From an uncultured Rivularia sp. (lineage in GTDB: Bacteria > Cyanobacteriota > Cyanobacteriia > Cyanobacteriales > Nostocaceae): a DNA stretch of 64,000 nucleotides. Each line of letters opens with the position of its first letter. The stretch's first letter is position 1. The DNA lies in the NCBI GenBank assembly GCA_963665115.1, contig OY762007.1, forward strand, positions 2,560,001-2,624,000, read 5' to 3'. Position numbers and translations under genes: made by a program. Positions 5,430 to 27,416 of this stretch are shown in pieces. Under the pieces are notes generated by a model that was not told the origin of the DNA, did no database searches, and was given only the letters and a program-made list of their open reading frames with translations.

Positions 5430-6071
5430 TTAATACAAACCAAATCGCTCATCTTGTTCAATTAAAGCCTGTATTTCTTCGACGCTTTCTTTAAGATTTG
5501 CTGCATCTACCATTGTTTGCGCTAACGATGGTAAATCATCGATAGATTGCCAATTGTCGCTTTGCCATATTTTAGAGCGCAACATACATTTAGCACAGTG
5601 AAAAAACGCTTTTTTAATATTAACTACAAGCGCAAAATCTGGAATTTTATTATTAATAGCCATACTTTCCCGCAAAGGTGCATCTCTGACAATAATTGCA
5701 CTTCCACTCATTCGCAAAGTTTCACCTTTACCCGGTACGAGAAAGAATAAACCAACTTTGGGATTTTCTAGTATATTTTGAAAAGTATCTGCTCGACGAT
5801 TTCCTAGTCTATCAGGAATAGCTAAGGTATTATCATCAAGTATTTGCACAAATCCGGGTGGATCTCCTTTCGGTGATATATCCATGTTTCCATTAGCATC
5901 TGATGAAGCGATAAATACTAAAGGTGATTTTGCAATAAAAGCGCGACAGTGTTTATCTAATTTTGGGATTACGATATCGGTGACTCGATGGCTGGGATAT
6001 CCCATTACTTCCCGCAGTTGTTCAACGGTGGTGATGATTTCGGAAAATTGAGTTTTCATGGGTGTTTTCAA
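5430..6071 (-). CDS. Pyridoxamine 5'-phosphate oxidase-family FMN-binding protein
   Basis: DISPKGDPPGFV, PDR.GN.R.D...NI..NP.VGL.F, FHCAKC..RS.IW. Confidence 0.85.
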   Translation of the reverse strand: MKTPMKTQFSEIITTVEQLREVMGYPSHRVTDIVIPKLDKHCRAFIAKSPLVFIASSDANGNMDISPKGDPPGFVQILDDNTLAIPDRLGNRRADTFQNILENPKVGLFFLVPGKGETLRMSGSAIIVRDAPLRESMAINNKIPDFALVVNIKKAFFHCAKCMLRSKIWQSDNWQSIDDLPSLAQTMVDAANLKESVEEIQALIEQDERFGLY

Positions 6072-19000: not shown

Positions 19001-19116
19001 TCGTATTCTAAAATACATACTTATGGAAAATATGCAAGTGGCAATAGGCGTATTATCTTAGTTTACGCGCAGTAATCGCTGCATGATTCGGCGGTAGATT
19101 AAACTCACCATAGCGC

Positions 19117-20106
19117 TCATACATAAGCGATTATATCTTTTAACTTCGCTAAATAAGACGGTATATATTCTAGTGCTGTTTGCATAAAAGCAGATTCTTG
19201 CTCAGATTTACCCGCAAGAAAAAGCGCAATACAAATATATCTGGCTGCCATAAATAATGAAATTTGATTTTCTATTTCAACTGAAAATTTTCTAATAGTT
19301 CTATATCCTTGGAATAAATTTTGTTTAATTTGAGAATATTCCGTTATTCCCCAATAATTCGCTAAAATTACCGCCAAATCGTAAATATAATATCCATAAC
19401 TAGAATCATCGAAATCAATGGGAACTAAAGTATTTTTATGACAAATAACATTCTTTAAATGCAAATCACCGTGAATGATGCCGAAAACATTGGTTTCTTT
19501 TCCAGCTACAGCTTCAAAATCACTTAAGCGTTGATAAACTAATTCAAATAAATTAACTGTTTCTCGATCAAAATATCTGTAACCCAAAGTCGCATATCCA
19601 AAAGCTCCATTTTTCCCAATCAAACCATCAGCATCAAACATTGGACGATGAAAATCAATAGGCTTTTGCCAATCCGCTAATTTATTATGGATATGAGCAA
19701 GTAATTTACCAAGTTTCTCAAATAAGCTTAAATCCTTGACTTGATGTCCGATAACTGGCGAATCAATCCATGAAAGTATTGAAACAGCTTTAGAAATTCC
19801 TGAAGCTTTACCGATAGAAACAAAATTATTGAAATTATTGTAAATCGGTTTTTGATATCGATAATTATTACAACTACTTAGATATTCGATAATTTTCGCT
19901 TCCGATTCTATATCTTGAACCGTATTCTGCAATCCACAATATACCCGGAGTAAAAAGTTACCTTGCTCGCTGGATAATTTAAAAGTTGTATTTTCTAAGT
20001 GTTTGATAAATTCCAGTTTTACTGAATTGAAACTATATTGTTCGATGGCATTCCGTGCGATTTCGGTATTGATAATAATTTGTTCTGTTGATGAATCTTT
20101 TTTCAT
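19117..20106 (-). CDS. APH/type II homoserine kinase-like phosphotransferase
   Basis: EN.TF, LG.LLA.IH, IHGDLHLKNV, IDFDD, YDLA. Confidence 0.88.
   Translation of the reverse strand: MKKDSSTEQIIINTEIARNAIEQYSFNSVKLEFIKHLENTTFKLSSEQGNFLLRVYCGLQNTVQDIESEAKIIEYLSSCNNYRYQKPIYNNFNNFVSIGKASGISKAVSILSWIDSPVIGHQVKDLSLFEKLGKLLAHIHNKLADWQKPIDFHRPMFDADGLIGKNGAFGYATLGYRYFDRETVNLFELVYQRLSDFEAVAGKETNVFGIIHGDLHLKNVICHKNTLVPIDFDDSSYGYYIYDLAVILANYWGITEYSQIKQNLFQGYRTIRKFSVEIENQISLFMAARYICIALFLAGKSEQESAFMQTALEYIPSYLAKLKDIIAYV
20017..20106. repeat. 90-bp direct repeat, copy 1 (first 30 codons of the phosphotransferase)
   Basis: 89/90 identical to 22356-22445 by direct comparison. Confidence 0.95.
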
Positions 20107-20979
20107 TGTAGCTTTATTAAAAAATCTGCCAGAAAAGTTTTATTTTGGAATGTTGCACGAACAGTATCACCATTATTGTAGTCAATAATAATTTCAAATC
20201 TTTTAAATTCACCAACCGGATTGTCGATATCAACTGATTTTAATCCTGCAAGCGCATCATTAATATTATTAAACTCATAGTTTTGGGCAAATAATGGTGC
20301 TATAATAACTTTTACTATAAATCGTTCAAGGACTGCTTGAAGTTTTTCCATAAAGTTATCTATTTCCTTTTGAGCAATTAACATTATTGCTTGTCGAAGT
20401 ATTTCTTTATCATTACTAGTTAGATTTGTCAGCTTTTGCGAAGCTTTAGAATAGTTTTCGTCAGCAGTATCTTCGTCAAATGCAATATCAAAATCAATAC
20501 TACTAAACGCCTCTACTACATCTTGATATGGTATATAGATAAGCGTAAATCCATTATTTCTTAATTGCTCTAAAGCTGGTTTAGTAAAATCTCCAGCTAA
20601 AACCGCACCGTAGAATGGTGCTGACAAATGGTGAAGTTCAATAATAGGTAAAATAGCACCTTGAATTTCCTGTACTTTATTCTTTGAATGCTTAGTATAT
20701 CTACGCCATGCAGACTCTATAAATGCAATTGGTGTACCAAGTTTGCTATCTGTACCATTCACTTCAATTACAAAATCTAGATCGTGTTTATTTCCGTACT
20801 TATCTATCCAAGTTACTTTTTTGCCACTTCTTGCTGCACGAAAACGTTGCGAATCAAGATAATAGTTTTGAGCTTGAGTAAATTCTAGTAGTCGAGGCTT
20901 AAGAATATCATCAAGGGACAATCTCTTCTGAAAGTTTACCTAAATCTTGCCCAAATTTATGGGATGGTGAACGCGCCAT
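20103..20979 (-). CDS. Putative type II restriction endonuclease (PD-(D/E)xK-like); +1 frameshift near 20918
   Basis: HDLDFVIE...AFIESAWRRYTKHSKNK; upstream frame starts MARSPSHKFGQ at 20979; directly downstream of the MTase. Confidence 0.75.
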
Positions 20980-20995
20980 AGTTTTATGATTATTT

Positions 20996-22285
20996 TTATC
21001 TTATCCAAAGTCTTCCTTCCTGTAATGGAATATTATGCTTTCTATTTTTCCATTTGATATTGCGTTTCCTAATCTGCTCGAAACTCCAGGAATTAAAACC
21101 TGCTGATAATGCTAATTCACCAAGCCATTTTTGAACGGGAACATATATTCCGTAAGGTGCTGAATCTCCTACTACAAAACATATATTACAGTTATTTGTT
21201 GTTACTCTACGTAATGCATGAAAAACCTTAGCCATATCAATAAAGTAAGCAGCTATCATTGTATGATAAGCTTTATTTCCTCCTTTAGTCTTTCTAATTT
21301 CTTTTAATTGTCTACAGACAGGAGTTAATTCATCGATAATGACTTTAATTATAGGTTCTTCTATCAAAATATCTAAGTCAAACTTTTCTTTAGAAGCGTG
21401 TTGAGAATTTGAACAAATCAGATATTTTCGTACAGCTTCATGTAAATCTCCCCAAGAATTTACTTCACCCCAAAAAGTCATTTCAAGTCGCGTCGCATCA
21501 GCGTAATCATAGTTATTTGCGTAAGGTGGAGAAGTAATAATTAGATCGATAGATTTATCAGGAATATTTTTTAATAATCTAGCATCATCTTGGATAAGAT
21601 TAGCTTGAGATTTTGTTAGACTTTGCATATACTGCATATCTGATTGTATTAATGCAGCTTGATTATCTAAAGCGATAAATGGCTCGCAAGTTTTAGCTTT
21701 GCGTTTATTAGGAAGAACATATTGCCATTGTGCTGTACCTACATAGCTGGATAATCTCAAAATTCCACAGATAGTTAAAAAGGTAAGAGATTGGATATCT
21801 TCTGATAAATTGGGTGCTATTTCATCATAAGCTTGTCTAATTTTAAATAAACTTTTTAACGTATCTTCTGTATAACATTTTGTTAGTAAAGTTGGAATAT
21901 TTTCTGGAAATTTCACTTTAAGATTATTTGCACGATTCTTAATATTATCGATCGCTGCTACAAATTGATCCAAATTAGCAATCCATGCCAGTTTTCCTTT
22001 TGCAATTCTATACACAAACGGATGTGCTTCAATTCCATATGAATTTATAGCTAATTTATCGGCAACAATACAAACAGTACCAGAGCCAAGAAATGGATCG
22101 AGAATGTTTTTAGGCTGTAACTCTTTGATAACTTCTTCCGTCCAATTTGCTGAAAATCCCGCAGAATAACGAAACCAGCGATGGACAGGTAGCTTCATAT
22201 TATCACTAAAAGTTCCAGTTTTTTCTGCAATCAAAGTAGATTGAGGTGAGTAATCAAAAAGCGAAAGTTGTAGGGGCTGAGTCAT
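20996..22285 (-). CDS. Amino-DNA methyltransferase, probably N4-cytosine
   Basis: Motif I DPFLGSGT precedes motif IV TSPPY; HRWFRY.AGFS N-terminal block. Confidence 0.9.
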   Translation of the reverse strand: MTQPLQLSLFDYSPQSTLIAEKTGTFSDNMKLPVHRWFRYSAGFSANWTEEVIKELQPKNILDPFLGSGTVCIVADKLAINSYGIEAHPFVYRIAKGKLAWIANLDQFVAAIDNIKNRANNLKVKFPENIPTLLTKCYTEDTLKSLFKIRQAYDEIAPNLSEDIQSLTFLTICGILRLSSYVGTAQWQYVLPNKRKAKTCEPFIALDNQAALIQSDMQYMQSLTKSQANLIQDDARLLKNIPDKSIDLIITSPPYANNYDYADATRLEMTFWGEVNSWGDLHEAVRKYLICSNSQHASKEKFDLDILIEEPIIKVIIDELTPVCRQLKEIRKTKGGNKAYHTMIAAYFIDMAKVFHALRRVTTNNCNICFVVGDSAPYGIYVPVQKWLGELALSAGFNSWSFEQIRKRNIKWKNRKHNIPLQEGRLWIR

Positions 22286-22355
22286 TTTAGTATTTTACTT
22301 ATATATTGCATAATTTTTCTTTCACTCTATTTCTGTTGCTAAAAACTTTGTACTA

Positions 22356-22445
22356 TTTTACTGAATTGAAACTATATTGTTCGATGGCATTCCGTGCGAT
22401 TTCGGTATTGATAATAATTTGTTCTGTTGATAAATCTTTTTTCAT
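22356..22445. repeat. 90-bp direct repeat, copy 2 (truncated 5' end of the phosphotransferase)
   Basis: Minus strand reads MKKDLSTEQIIINTEIARNAIEQYSFNSVK, then diverges and stops. Confidence 0.95.
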
Positions 22446-22686
22446 ATGCTGTGAAAAATTAATTTTAATACCATAAATGGTCAATATTTTGCTCTAACTA
22501 TAGTCTTGTATTCATATTTTTGCTGGTTTGATTTATCTATATTAATCTAAACTTATTCGTAGAGTATTTAAATATAAGATTTGCTAATATTTAGCTTTAC
22601 AAATTGACATTTTACGAATTGAACATTTCAGGTCATGATAATAGGTAATAACACCACCGCACATAATATATTTTTGGATTAAACTA

Positions 22687-24420
22687 ATGGTTCAACTCAC
22701 ACAGTCAACTCAAGCTACAACTAACCCCGGACGTTTAACAGTTGAAACTGTAGAAATTGCTCCTGAAACTACTGCTATTCGCTGTCTTGATTGGGACAGA
22801 GACCGTTTTGATATCGAGTTTGGTTTGCAGAATGGAACAACTTATAATTCTTTCTTAATTCAAGGAGAAAAAATTGCTTTAGTTGATACTTCTCACCGCA
22901 AGTTTGAGGAGTTATATATGGACATAATTACAGGTTTAATTGACGTAAGTAAGATAGACTATTTGATTATTAGCCACACCGAACCAGACCATAGTGGCTT
23001 GGTTAAAAATATTTTAGAATTAGCTCCTGGTATTACAGTTGTTGGTGCTAAAGTAGCGATTCAATTCTTAGAAAATATGGTTCACCAGCCTTTTGAATCA
23101 ATGGTGGTGAAAAGCGGACAGAAGCTAGATTTGGGCAACGGACACGAGTTAGAATTTGTTTCTGCTCCGAACTTACATTGGCCCGATACAATCTTCACTT
23201 ACGACCATAAAACAAATACTCTTTATACCTGTGATGTATTTGGAATGCATTACTGCGATGACCGCACTTACGATGAAAATTTCACCTCAATAGAAGATGA
23301 TTTCAAATATTACTATGACTGTCTGATGGGGCCAAATGCCCGTTCTGTATTATCAGCTTTAAAGCGGATTAATAAATTAGAAATTGGAAAGGTTGCAACG
23401 GGACACGGACCTTTATTACAGCACCATATTTCGGAATGGATTGGACGCTATCAAGATTGGAGTTCGGAACAAGCTAAAAAAGAAAAATTAGTAGCTTTAT
23501 TTTACGTTGAAGATTACGGCTATAGCGAAGAATTAGTTAGAGCCGTAGCATATGGAAGCAATAGAACAGATGTAGCGGTAGAATTAGTAGATCTCAACGA
23601 TACCGAGCTAACTGAAGTCCGAGAAATAGTTTCCCAAGCTGCTGGTTTAGTAATTGGAATGCCTCCACAATCTAATAATGTTGCTCAAGCTGCTTTAAAT
23701 ACTATCTTGGCAGCCGTTCACAATAAGCAAGCAATTGGCTTATTAGAGTCGGGAGGAGGAGAAGACGAACCGATTTATCCCTTACGCAATAAGTTTCAAG
23801 ATTTGGGATTAACCGAAGCCTTTTCTCCAATATTAGTTAAGGAAACTCCCAGCAAAGCTATAGAACAACTTTGCGATGAAGCAGGAACCGATTTAGGACA
23901 ATGGTTGAATCGCGATCGCACCATAAAACAAATCAAAGCCATTGATAACGAGTTAGAAAAATCTTTGGGAAGGATTAGCACCGGGCTTTATATTATCACC
24001 GCCAAAAAAGGAGAAGTTGAAAGCGCAATGCTGGCTTCCTGGGTGACACAAGCAAGCGTTAATCCATTAGGAGTTGCGATCGCAGTTGCCAAAGACAGAG
24101 CAATCGAATCCTTAATGCACGTCGGCGATCGCTTTGTTTTAAACGTTTTAGAGGAAGGCAAATATCAAGGATTAATGAAACATTTCCTCAAGCGTTTTGC
24201 TCCCGGTGCAGATAGATTTGCAGGAGTTAAAACATATCCTGCTGCCACCAACGAATCTCCGATTTTAGCCGAAGCTCTCGCTTACATGGAATGTGAAATT
24301 ACAACCCGTATGGATTGCGGAGATCACTGGGTAATTTACAGCACAGTCCACACCGGAAGAGTTGCCCAAGTAAACGCCTTAACCGCCGTGCATCACCGCA
24401 AAATGGGCAATCATTATTAA
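22687..24420 (+). CDS. flv4: Class C flavodiiron protein, Flv4-like
   Basis: Metallo-beta-lactamase (HTEPDH, LHWPD), flavodoxin and flavin reductase domains; first gene of a flv-small membrane protein-flv arrangement. Confidence 0.85.
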   Translation: MVQLTQSTQATTNPGRLTVETVEIAPETTAIRCLDWDRDRFDIEFGLQNGTTYNSFLIQGEKIALVDTSHRKFEELYMDIITGLIDVSKIDYLIISHTEPDHSGLVKNILELAPGITVVGAKVAIQFLENMVHQPFESMVVKSGQKLDLGNGHELEFVSAPNLHWPDTIFTYDHKTNTLYTCDVFGMHYCDDRTYDENFTSIEDDFKYYYDCLMGPNARSVLSALKRINKLEIGKVATGHGPLLQHHISEWIGRYQDWSSEQAKKEKLVALFYVEDYGYSEELVRAVAYGSNRTDVAVELVDLNDTELTEVREIVSQAAGLVIGMPPQSNNVAQAALNTILAAVHNKQAIGLLESGGGEDEPIYPLRNKFQDLGLTEAFSPILVKETPSKAIEQLCDEAGTDLGQWLNRDRTIKQIKAIDNELEKSLGRISTGLYIITAKKGEVESAMLASWVTQASVNPLGVAIAVAKDRAIESLMHVGDRFVLNVLEEGKYQGLMKHFLKRFAPGADRFAGVKTYPAATNESPILAEALAYMECEITTRMDCGDHWVIYSTVHTGRVAQVNALTAVHHRKMGNHY

Positions 24421-24580
24421 ACAGTGAACAGTTAACAGTTAACAGTGAACAGTGAACAGTTAACAGTGAACAGTTAGGAGTTAGGAGTTAGGAGTAGTTA
24501 TTTCTCCTTGTCTCCCCCTCTCCCCCTCTACCCCCTCTACCCCCTCTTCCCCCTCTTCCCAATCTCCCCATCTTCCCCCT
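24421..24580. repeat. STRR-type short tandem repeats (AACAGTG/AACAGTT, TTAGGAG, CCCCTCT variants)
   Basis: Visible 7- and 9-nt tandem units. Confidence 0.85.
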
Positions 24581-24609
24581 ATGCATAAATCTGCGAAACT
24601 ATACCAACC

Positions 24610-25092: not shown

Positions 25093-25256
25093 GAGTGAGG
25101 AATTAGGGGTAACTAAGGTTAAAGGTTAGGAGTTAGGAGTTAGGAGTTAGGAGTAGTAAGTAGCAAGTAGTAAGTAGTGAGTTAAGAATATATTTCTCCT
25201 TGTCTCCTTGTCTCCCCATCCCCTCTTCCCCCTCTTCCCCCTCTCCCCCCTCTCCA
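25091..25256. repeat. STRR-type short tandem repeats
   Basis: TTAGGAG, AAGTAGT and CCCCTCTTC units. Confidence 0.8.
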
Positions 25257-25290
25257 ATTACTAAATACCAAATTTAATCCAAAATTGATT

Positions 25291-27025
25291 ATGTCAACTA
25301 CCACAACCACAAACCGTAAAAGAGATGTCCAAGTTGCTGAAATTGGACAAAATACGATGATTTTGCGATCGCGAACTTGGGATCGATTGAAGTTTGAGGT
25401 TGAATATTCCCGTCAAAAGGGAACTACAGCCAATTCTTATCTGATCCAAGCTGATAAAAAAGCTTTAATCGATCCTCCTGGTGAATCTTTTACGGAAATT
25501 TATCTCCAGCAATTAAAGCAGCATCTAGATTTAACTACTTTAGATTACATTATTCTCGGTCATGTTAATCCTAACCGTAGAGCGACTTTGGAAGCATTGC
25601 TACCTCAAGCACCGAACGCTACTTTAATTTGTTCTCGCCCTGCTGCCAATGCCCTCAAAGCGGCTTTTCCTGAGTGGGAATCGCGGATTCAAACCGTGCG
25701 CTCGGAGGATACTTTAGATTTAGGAGGAGGACACAATTTAACATTTGTTACCATACCTACTCCCCGTTGGGCTGATGGGCTTTGTACTTATGACTCTGCG
25801 ACAAATATTCTTTATACAGATAAATTATTTGGCGCTCATATCTGCGAAGATACTTTATCTGATAAAAACTGGAAAAGTTTAGATGCGGAACGTCGTTACT
25901 ATTTTGAATGTCTCCACGCACCCCAAGCCAAACAAGTTGAAGCTATTTTAGAAAAGATTGCGGTTTTCCCTGCAAAAACCTACGCTCCCGGTCATGGTCC
26001 AATTGTTAGTCATAGCCTCAGTAGATTTACTTACGATTACCAGCAATGGTGCCAGAATCAAAAATCTCAAGAATTGAGTGTTGCTTTACTTTATGCTTCC
26101 GCTTACGGAAATACAGCGATTTTAGCCGGGGCGATCGCCAATGGTTTAATAGAGAATGGAGTTAATGTAGAATCGATCAACTGTGAATCGGCAGATACTG
26201 AGGAGATTACCCGGATTGTAGAAGCTTGCGATGGCTTGATTATTGGTTTCACCTACATTAGGTGGGCATGCACCGACTCAAATTCAAACCGCTTTAGGAA
26301 TAATTCTGTCAAAAGCTGCGAAAACTAAATTAGCGGGAGTATTTGGTTCCTATGGTTGGAGTGGGGAAGCAGTTGATTTAATAGAAAACAAATTTAAAGA
26401 TGCCAATTATCGTTTAGGATTTGAATCAATTCGAGTTCGTTTCACTCCTACAGATGAAATTCTGCAACAATGTCAAGAAGCTGGCGCATTATTTGCCGAA
26501 AACTTGAAAAAAGACAAGAAACTGCGTAGCTCCCGTCAAGTTGTCACAGAAACCCATATAGATCGTACCGAGCAAGCAGTAGGGCGGATTATAGGTTCGT
26601 TATCTGTAGTAACGAGTCGCGACGGAGACACTCACAAAGGTGTTTTAACTTCTTGGGTATCTCAAGCCAGCTTTAATCCACCGGGAATAATGATTGCCAT
26701 TGCTGACGAACAAAATGCAGATTTGATATCTAATCTTGACGATAAATTTGTACTAAATATCCTTAAAGAAGGTAGAAATGTCCGCCGATATTTTTCTCGT
26801 CAAAGTACGTTAGGGGATAATCCATTCGTCAATCTTTCCACCAAAACCGCTGACAATGGTTGTCTTGTTCTCACCGAAGCATTATCTTACTTAGAATGCA
26901 CCGTACAAAATAGAATTAAATCTGGTGAAAGATGGTTAATTTATGCCGTAATAGATAACGGTGAAGTCTTAGAAGATGAAGGTTTAACTGCCGTCGAGCA
27001 TCGGAAATCGGGGAGTTATTATTAA
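25291..27025 (+). CDS. flv2: Flavodiiron protein, Flv2-like (+1 frameshift near 26248)
   Basis: Non-canonical HVNPNR/PRWAD site, YASAYGNT, G/SPTLGGH split across frames, flavin reductase C-domain. Confidence 0.82.
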
Positions 27026-27341: not shown

Positions 27342-27416
27342 GTAGTTGATAACGGTAAACTTTTTGAAAACGAAGGTTCAACTGCTGTAGAACATCGTAA
27401 ATCTGGCAGCGATTAA
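27342..27416 (+). pseudogene. Diverged orphan 3' end of a flv2-like gene
   Basis: Encodes VVDNGKLFENEGSTAVEHRKSGSD*, versus flv2 VIDNGEVLEDEGLTAVEHRKSGSYY*. Confidence 0.8.

What the first reader, a model, noticed from the sequence alone, without database searches (positions are those of the whole stretch)
20017..22445. Restriction-modification cassette inserted with a 90-bp target duplication that rebuilds the target gene
Seen: the MTase and REase are bracketed by direct repeats at 20017-20106 and 22356-22445 (one mismatch). The repeat is exactly the first 30 codons of the phosphotransferase. The upstream copy is a dead stub behind the presumed native promoter. The downstream copy starts the intact gene, and its ATGA also supplies the REase stop codon. 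No transposase or integrase is present. Established: 'insertion with long target duplication' has been described for R-M genes in Helicobacter pylori. Inference: a recent transposase-free R-M acquisition that captures the host promoter and could be excised by recombination between the repeats.
Basis: partly seen in the sequence, partly recalled or inferred. Interest (0 to 1): 0.7.

Follow-up and report, generated by a model that had tools for sequence, protein, structure and literature searches.

The report
Roaming restriction-modification cassette with refreshed repeats
A two-gene DNA restriction-modification cassette sits between two near-identical copies of the first 90 bases of a kinase-like gene, a known footprint; related cyanobacteria carry the same cassette at the same spot or a clean empty site, so it is likely an old insertion passed between species by recombination rather than a fresh one.

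Summary
The 90-bp repeat is real (89/90, only two copies in the genome, double contig depth). It brackets a Type II methyltransferase and a PD-(D/E)XK endonuclease, with no recombinase. A ~99%-identical strain and 15 of 26 congeners have the single-copy empty site. This is a clean 'insertion with long target duplication', already described, including repeats over start codons and a cyanobacterial case. The scan has reported this kind on other DNA.

'Recent' is not supported. Seven of 26 congeners hold the cassette or a remnant at the same site, 83-94% identical, one with the same junction. The cassette and the neighbouring flavodiiron gene came from another lineage (dS ~0.2, against ~0.5 for the other flank and rpoB). 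The two repeat copies group by genome, not by position, so recombination likely keeps them alike.

NcoI-like (CCATGG) specificity and promoter capture remain inferences.

The parts
22356..22445 (-). Upstream repeat copy: 30-codon stub of the phosphotransferase, followed by TAG (22355-22353)
   Evidence: base 90 is also where the assembly of congener G018 forks into cassette or continuing gene
22286..22355 (-). 70-bp cassette leader between stub and MTase start; the same leader type occurs in G018 and G002, a different type in G005, G013, G021 and G004
20996..22285 (-). Type II DNA methyltransferase, 429 aa; DPFLGSGT near the N-terminus, then TSPPY, i.e. likely an alpha-class N4-cytosine MTase (class assignment from recalled motif rules)
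   Evidence: PF01555; PADLOC MTase_II PDLC03306, E 1.3e-128; motifs visible in the translation; dN/dS 0.13-0.20 against congeners
20103..20979 (-). Type II restriction endonuclease gene (291 aa when intact); in this assembly frameshifted after codon 22, which leaves the ORF 20921-20103
   Evidence: PADLOC REase_II PDLC03525, E 3.8e-57; start and frameshift; intact relative folds as PD-(D/E)XK
20915..20917 (-). Run of three C (two in intact alleles): the one-base insertion that breaks the REase
   Evidence: present in X1, absent in X2 and X3; absent in all five congener copies examined
20017..20106 (-). Downstream repeat copy: codons 1-30 of the intact phosphotransferase; its ATGA holds the REase stop
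   Evidence: the single copy in empty strain X4 matches it at 89/90
19117..20106 (-). Target gene: APH/homoserine-kinase-like phosphotransferase, 329 aa, intact
   Evidence: PF01636, E 5.8e-17; below the cut-offs of all NCBIfam equivalogs
22446..22686 (.). Intergenic region between the stub and the divergent flavodiiron gene; the same region lies directly before the phosphotransferase in empty genomes (presumed promoter, untested)
   Evidence: promoter scan at chance level
22687..24420 (+). Flavodiiron gene (577 aa), first gene of the tract (to about 27,030) that was exchanged together with the cassette
   Evidence: PF01613 and PF19583; G018-like ancestry

Best explanation
A Type II methyltransferase-endonuclease pair sits between two copies of the first 90 bases of a phosphotransferase gene; it is likely an old insertion with long target duplication that has since moved between species by homologous recombination, with recombination likely keeping both repeat copies matched to the local empty allele.

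Steps. (1) Shown: the duplication leaves the target gene whole behind the cassette and a 30-codon stub in front. (2) Shown: filled and empty alleles of this one site coexist across the genus and within single samples. (3) Strongly inferred: this lineage received the cassette as part of a roughly 7-kb tract that also holds the flavodiiron operon, with one end at the downstream repeat. (4) Inferred: both repeat copies are homologous to the single copy of the empty allele, so crossovers with empty chromosomes (or conversion between the copies) overwrite them with the local sequence, and an old insertion looks new. (5) Inferred: an active endonuclease resists loss; once it is broken (frameshift here, internal deletion in G003), one crossover between the repeats can remove the cassette exactly, giving the empty site seen in X4. 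Loss of the stub (G013, G021) would lock it in. (6) Predicted: the MTase makes N4-methylcytosine and the pair is NcoI-like (CCATGG); both genes would be read from the phosphotransferase promoter.
For: Site survey: of 26 other genomes in the genus, 5 hold MTase plus REase sequence at this site (G003, G005, G013, G018, G021) and 2 hold part or a remnant (G002, G004). 15 have the phosphotransferase start directly behind the same intergenic region, 2 show neither gene there (G010, G015), and 2 are unresolved (G022, G023). G018 has the same junction at base 90 and the same leader. Run X4 has a contig at depth 104 that skips the cassette, with 17 differences in 1,507 nt on one side and 13 in 737 nt on the other; it also has depth-4 cassette contigs about 98% identical. 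Lateral origin: dS to G018 is 0.18 (MTase), 0.22 (REase) and 0.20 (flavodiiron gene), but 0.50 (phosphotransferase after the repeat), 0.47 (nitroreductase) and 0.46 (rpoB). To G003 and G007, rpoB is 0.19 and 0.16 but the flavodiiron gene is 0.45. rpoB rejects a G000+G018 clade (p-AU 0.00016), while the flavodiiron tree has it at 100/99 (groups named after the trees were seen). Homogenisation: over the six pairs among the four genomes with both copies, 38 sites group by genome and 1 by position (pairs are not independent). G005's copies are identical over 60 aligned bases, and G003's stub matches the empty allele of its relative G007 at 44/45. Precedent: PMC2853133 (passages, sections 15 and 18) and PMC2588503 (passages: an active REase resists replacement by an empty site).
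Against: gyrB puts G018 at dS 0.22, as close as the cassette, and the phosphotransferase tree does not reject G000+G018 (p-AU 0.118). The genus is mosaic elsewhere too, with G018 reaching 95-96% in parts of a distant control region. G018 is a fragmented assembly of 83% completeness, and its two alleles are read from a 55-nt contig overlap. Homogenisation is incomplete in G018 (10/90 differences) and absent in G003. The direction for X4 (loss versus never gained) is by parsimony only. No excision was seen: cassette depth equals flank depth in X1 and X2; it is lower in X3 (242-256 vs 287-332), which contigs cannot resolve. Runs X1-X4 are one study. How the first duplication arose is not addressed by any search.
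Confidence: 0.65

Rival explanations
1. The cassette excises as a circle through the repeats and re-enters empty sites by a single crossover in the 90 bp, a recombinase-free cycle of release and reinfection.
For: Always the same site and nearly the same boundary. Stubs match the local host allele (G003 with G007 44/45; G002's stub is nearest G017) while G003's downstream copy is nearest G013's. Filled and empty alleles co-occur in samples. PMC2853133 (Discussion, read) proposes such a cycle and says release and infection lack experimental evidence.
Against: A circle would not carry the flavodiiron gene, yet it shares the cassette's foreign ancestry and divergence. A single crossover with a 7-12% diverged donor gives two different hybrid copies, not 89/90 or 60/60. 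No back-joined contig was listed, though a join inside the 76 identical bases would be invisible.
Confidence: 0.14
2. A fresh insertion in this lineage created the 90-bp duplication.
For: Repeats 89/90; a ~99%-identical strain is empty and its single copy matches at 89/90. At the cassette's divergence from G018 (6.5%), at most one difference in 90 has probability 0.017.
Against: The same cassette, leader and junction occur in G018 at 93%, and the same site is filled in six further congeners. A ~98% identical cassette occurs at low depth in X4's own sample. An independent event would have to hit the same base.
Confidence: 0.08
3. One insertion in the ancestor of the genus, inherited vertically, lost many times, with the repeats kept alike by conversion within each chromosome and no transfer between species.
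For: Filled genomes occur in several parts of the host tree. Cassette dS to G003, G005, G013 and G021 (0.3-0.5 for full-length genes) shows age. gyrB does not separate G018.
Against: MTase dS is 0.47 to the near relative G003 but 0.18 to the farther G018. The flavodiiron tree rejects the host clade (p-AU 9e-9). Left and right junction types occur in mixed combinations.
Confidence: 0.12
4. The repeat is an assembly artefact.
For: The window holds other frame breaks (the REase; a split second flavodiiron gene).
Against: Contigs of three runs reproduce both junctions and the double depth; congeners have stubs at the same place.
Confidence: 0.01

Closest known systems
Insertion of R-M genes with long target duplication (Furuta, Abe and Kobayashi 2010, PMC2853133; first described in H. 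pylori, cited there as ref. 37, not read here)
   Same: R and M genes only, insert under 20 kb, direct repeat over 30 bp, single-copy empty site in a relative, no mobility gene. The paper states that the repeats often span a translation start or stop and may leave the target intact, and lists an 88/88-bp Microcystis case.
   Different: That paper compares pairs of genomes. Here 27 genomes of one genus plus 8 sequencing runs show one site filled, empty, eroded and exchanged between species, and repeat copies that group by genome. Its supplementary figure S7 was not read.
PamI system of Paracoccus plasmid pAMI7, said to have NcoI specificity (PMC3925955, passages only)
   Same: The intact REase relative is 35% identical over 182 aa (E 1e-34) to the protein next to the pAMI7 methyltransferase.
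   Different: The pAMI7 MTase record reads 'DNA cytosine methyltransferase' (363 codons) and gave no tblastn hit to this MTase. The match covers only the N-terminal two thirds, too distant to fix specificity. That NcoI reads CCATGG is recalled.
H. pylori HpyAXII locus (PMC2588503, passages only)
   Same: Chromosomal Type II pair with a conserved M; the active R resists replacement by an empty site.
   Different: The word 'repeat' does not occur in its main text; different enzyme family.
Integrase-linked R-M islands at tRNA genes
   Same: A member of this same R-M family is flanked by a 61-bp repeat that looks like a tRNA 3' end in locus L061.
   Different: Here the repeat is protein-coding, has two copies in the genome, and has no integrase between or beside it.

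Membership tests
R-M insertion with long target duplication (criteria of PMC2853133) | Both R and M homologs inside the insert | tested here: met
   PADLOC REase_II and MTase_II; R is frameshifted in this assembly and intact in runs X2 and X3
R-M insertion with long target duplication (criteria of PMC2853133) | Insert shorter than 20 kb | tested here: met
   2,249 bp of unique sequence, 20107-22355
R-M insertion with long target duplication (criteria of PMC2853133) | Direct duplication longer than 30 bp | tested here: met
   90 bp, 89/90
R-M insertion with long target duplication (criteria of PMC2853133) | Empty site with one copy in a related genome | tested here: met
   X4 contig; 15 of 26 congeners
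R-M insertion with long target duplication (criteria of PMC2853133) | No integrase or transposase; repeat is not a tRNA end or a multicopy element | tested here: met
   ORF list; two copies in the genome; repeat is coding sequence
Type II R-M system | Separate endonuclease with a restriction-enzyme fold | tested here: met
   Model of the intact relative, pLDDT 89.8; best match BstEII Z 9.7, rmsd 3.0, 136 aligned, with SgrAI, BsaWI and BsoBI at Z 7.4-8.3; Foldseek weak but consistent
Type II R-M system | Cognate amino-methyltransferase with intact motifs | tested here: met
   DPFLGSGT and TSPPY in the translation; PF01555
Type II R-M system | Sequence-specific cleavage and protection | not testable with these tools
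   No methylome or enzyme assay available
NcoI/PamI isoschizomer group | Recognition of CCATGG | tested here: inconclusive
   35% identity to the pAMI7 endonuclease. CCATGG is strongly avoided in the genome (16 seen, 769 expected), but 20 of 64 palindromic 6-mers are at or below 0.08 of expectation
Self-mobile element (transposon or integrative element) | Own recombinase, terminal inverted repeats or further copies in the genome | tested here: not met
   No such ORF, no terminal inverted repeat among those listed, single copy of the cassette

The most novel reading that the evidence does not exclude
The 90-bp repeat works as a reusable, recombinase-free attachment site. The cassette cycles through the genus by entering empty alleles through it, losing its endonuclease, and popping out exactly. 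This locus would then be a natural, cultivable example of the release and re-entry steps of the 'virus-like life cycle' of R-M systems, which PMC2853133 describes as lacking experimental evidence. It would also mean that long target duplications in general are maintained structures and not dated scars.
Probability: 0.15. Interest if true: 0.62.

Novelty: new member of a known kind. Interest (0 to 1): 0.3.

Why it matters
The footprint itself is known. The value of this case is the depth of comparison. One site shows intact, endonuclease-dead, stub-less, remnant and exactly empty alleles, with near-isogenic samples differing by one base in the endonuclease and a ~99%-identical strain lacking the cassette. 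It shows that near-identical long 'target duplications' need not mean recent insertion, a caution for anyone dating R-M gains that way. It also gives a ready system to test whether loss of the endonuclease opens the way to exact excision.

Tried and rejected
Promoter scan: 15 sites against 14.4 +/- 4.0 in shuffles, uninformative. No RNA holder listed. PDB sequence searches: nothing for the REase (best E 0.92), weak MTase hits only. Pfam and NCBIfam do not recognise the REase; the ESM Atlas gave unnamed clusters and an Mrr_cat lead at 0.84. The single-sequence fold was poor (pLDDT 59.8) and was replaced by the alignment fold. Palindrome avoidance cannot single out a site.

General tendency of this R-M family to carry target duplications: of 43 loci scanned (4 of them duplicates-in-kind of genus loci plus the G003 locus, several with short flanks or R only), flank repeats outside the genus appeared in 5 (L053, L061, L136, L141, L142). 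Three were inspected: one tRNA-like end and two that look like dispersed repeats. So no general rule was found. REase decay beyond the frameshift: 6 departures at conserved columns, against 4-7 in close homologs, and dN/dS 0.14-0.22, so no sign of long decay. A second 88-bp gene-start repeat in the genome was tried as a non-R-M control; no clean empty site was found among 26 congeners. Literature searches for M.NcoI with N4-methylcytosine (0 papers) and for CCATGG in cyanobacterial methylomes (1 review, not read) gave nothing. Searches (listings and abstract starts only) showed no paper on repeat refreshing by allelic exchange; this is weak evidence of absence.

Full report
Observation. All genes read on the minus strand: a 30-codon stub ending in TAG, a 70-bp leader, a 429-aa methyltransferase (22285-20996), an endonuclease, and a 329-aa APH-family phosphotransferase (20106-19117) whose ATG overlaps the endonuclease's TGA. 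PADLOC assigns the two inner genes to MTase_II (E 1.3e-128) and REase_II (E 3.8e-57). No other ORF of 60 aa or more lies wholly between the repeats. Contigs of three public runs reproduce both junctions and collapse the 76 identical bases into one piece at about double depth, so the repeat is not an artefact. These runs belong to one study, and X1 may be the window's source.

A correction on the endonuclease. The listed 272-aa ORF starts at a TTG, but all five congener copies examined start at the ATG matching 20979 and read through, whereas the window has one more base in the run at 20915-20917 and stops after 22 codons. X1 carries the extra base at depth 231; X2 and X3, otherwise without listed differences, lack it. 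The break is therefore real in one sample and very recent. The rest of the gene shows no long decay (dN/dS 0.14-0.22; 6 departures at conserved columns against 4-7 in close homologs). The intact relative L047, folded with a 69-row alignment (pLDDT 89.8), matches PD-(D/E)XK restriction enzymes, best BstEII at Z 9.7, rmsd 3.0, 136 aligned. It is 35% identical over 182 aa to the endonuclease-position gene of plasmid pAMI7, a system said to have NcoI specificity (PMC3925955, passages). CCATGG is strongly avoided in this genome, but so are 19 other palindromes, so the specificity is a lead only.

The empty site. Run X4 holds a contig at depth 104 that passes from the upstream region through one copy of the repeat into the phosphotransferase, with 17 differences in 1,507 nt and 13 in 737 nt on the two sides; its single copy matches the downstream copy at 89/90. 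Among the 26 other genomes of the genus (record titles of the closest loci name Rivularia or uncultured cyanobacteria), 15 have the phosphotransferase start directly behind the same intergenic region, 2 show neither gene there, and 2 are unresolved. That paper already notes repeats over translation starts that leave the target intact, and lists an 88/88-bp case in Microcystis.

Not a fresh insertion. The remaining 7 of 26 genomes carry the cassette or part of it at this same site: G005, G013, G018 and G021 with both genes, G003 with most of the endonuclease deleted, G002 at a contig edge, and G004 as a 30-codon MTase remnant fused to the end of the phosphotransferase. G018 has the same junction at base 90 and the same leader, and its assembly forks at that base into either the cassette or the continuing gene. 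The G018-type filled allele's right end also appears in runs of two studies, and several allele types coexist in one mat sample. G013 and G021 have lost the stub. G005 and G021 end the endonuclease with its own TAA before the repeat, so the ATGA overlap is one of two variants.

How it reached this lineage. By rpoB plus gyrB, G000 lies with G016, G007, G003, G001 and G013, and G018 lies with G002 in another group. On both sides of the locus and in two distant control regions, G007 and G003 are mostly 88-97% identical and G018 mostly 83-92%. From the downstream repeat to about 27,030 the order flips: G018 is 91-95% and G003/G007 mostly 86-89%. Synonymous distance to G018 is 0.18-0.22 for MTase, REase and the flavodiiron gene but 0.46-0.50 for the phosphotransferase beyond the repeat, the nitroreductase and rpoB. 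rpoB rejects a G000+G018 clade (p-AU 0.00016) and the flavodiiron gene supports it at 100/99 (15-16 of 27 genomes used, groups named after the trees were seen). Against this, gyrB puts G018 at 0.22, the phosphotransferase test is inconclusive (p-AU 0.118), and G018 is a fragmented assembly. The simplest reading is allelic exchange of a roughly 7-kb tract with one end at the repeat. X4 shares the start of that tract but not the cassette, so its empty site is most simply a later exact loss.

Why the repeats look new. If they dated from one old event, stubs would resemble stubs. They do not. G000's copies differ at 1/90 from each other and at 10-12/90 from G018's. G005's copies are identical over the 60 bases that align. 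Over the six pairs among G000, G018, G005 and G003, 38 sites group by genome and 1 by position (not independent counts). G003's stub matches the empty allele of its relative G007 at 44/45. Both copies are homologous to the single copy of an empty chromosome, so recombination with empty alleles, or conversion between the copies, can overwrite them; which of the two acts is not resolved. Homogenisation is partial in G018 and absent in G003.

Mechanism, shown and inferred. Shown: anatomy, empty and filled alleles, endonuclease breakage in two lineages, conflicting ancestry across the locus. Inferred: spread by homologous recombination, refreshing of the repeats, exact loss by a crossover between them once the endonuclease is dead (PMC2588503, passages, shows that an active endonuclease resists replacement by an empty site in H. 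pylori), and expression from the phosphotransferase promoter (scan at chance). Unknown: how the first duplication formed. Outside the genus the same R-M family sits in other contexts, mostly without flank repeats, so the duplication is not a fixed property of these enzymes.

Verdict. A real and unusually well documented new member of a known kind. Earlier notes of this scan report the same footprint on other DNA, one of them also with passage by homologous recombination; they were read after my analysis and were not checked. Interest 0.3.

Noticed in passing
window 25285-27025: The second flavodiiron gene is split into two overlapping ORFs (347 and 260 aa), apparently by a frameshift near 26,250-26,330. 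Real or assembly error is unknown. The operon looks like flv4-sll0218-flv2 (name taken from an earlier scan note and recall, not tested).
   Followed up: no
window 19052-19116: About 65 nt right after the phosphotransferase stop resemble the 3' end of a gene, apparently a SAM-dependent methyltransferase (by eye), that lies whole at this place in G005 and G018. It was deleted here, so the locus loses and gains genes often.
   Followed up: partly
G000:C1:4307770-4310095 (L151): An 88-bp direct repeat 2,238 bp apart copies the start of a 254-aa gene and brackets three genes that are not R-M (cysteine-synthase-like and ArsR-like by eye). The region is patchy in the genus at 94-99% identity; no clean empty site was found.
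   Followed up: partly
L061:3043-3103 and 5911-5971: The same R-M family in a planctomycete contig is flanked by a 61-bp repeat (98%) that looks like a tRNA 3' end, an att-like context.
   Followed up: partly
window 27342-27415: A 74-nt, 77% identical copy of the 3' end of the second flavodiiron gene (26948-27021), probably a remnant of another such gene.
   Followed up: no
whole genome G000: Extreme avoidance of palindromes: 20 of 64 six-base palindromes are at or below 0.08 of the Markov expectation, a sign of long exposure to many R-M systems.
   Followed up: no
L113-L125 (gyrB of congeners): The gyrB open frame is 657-692 aa in some congeners and 914-1,128 aa in others, which suggests patchy in-frame insertions such as inteins.
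   Followed up: no
window 24417-24584 and 25118-25264: Two intergenic blocks of short tandem repeats (7- and 9-base units) on both sides of the 160-aa gene.
   Followed up: no
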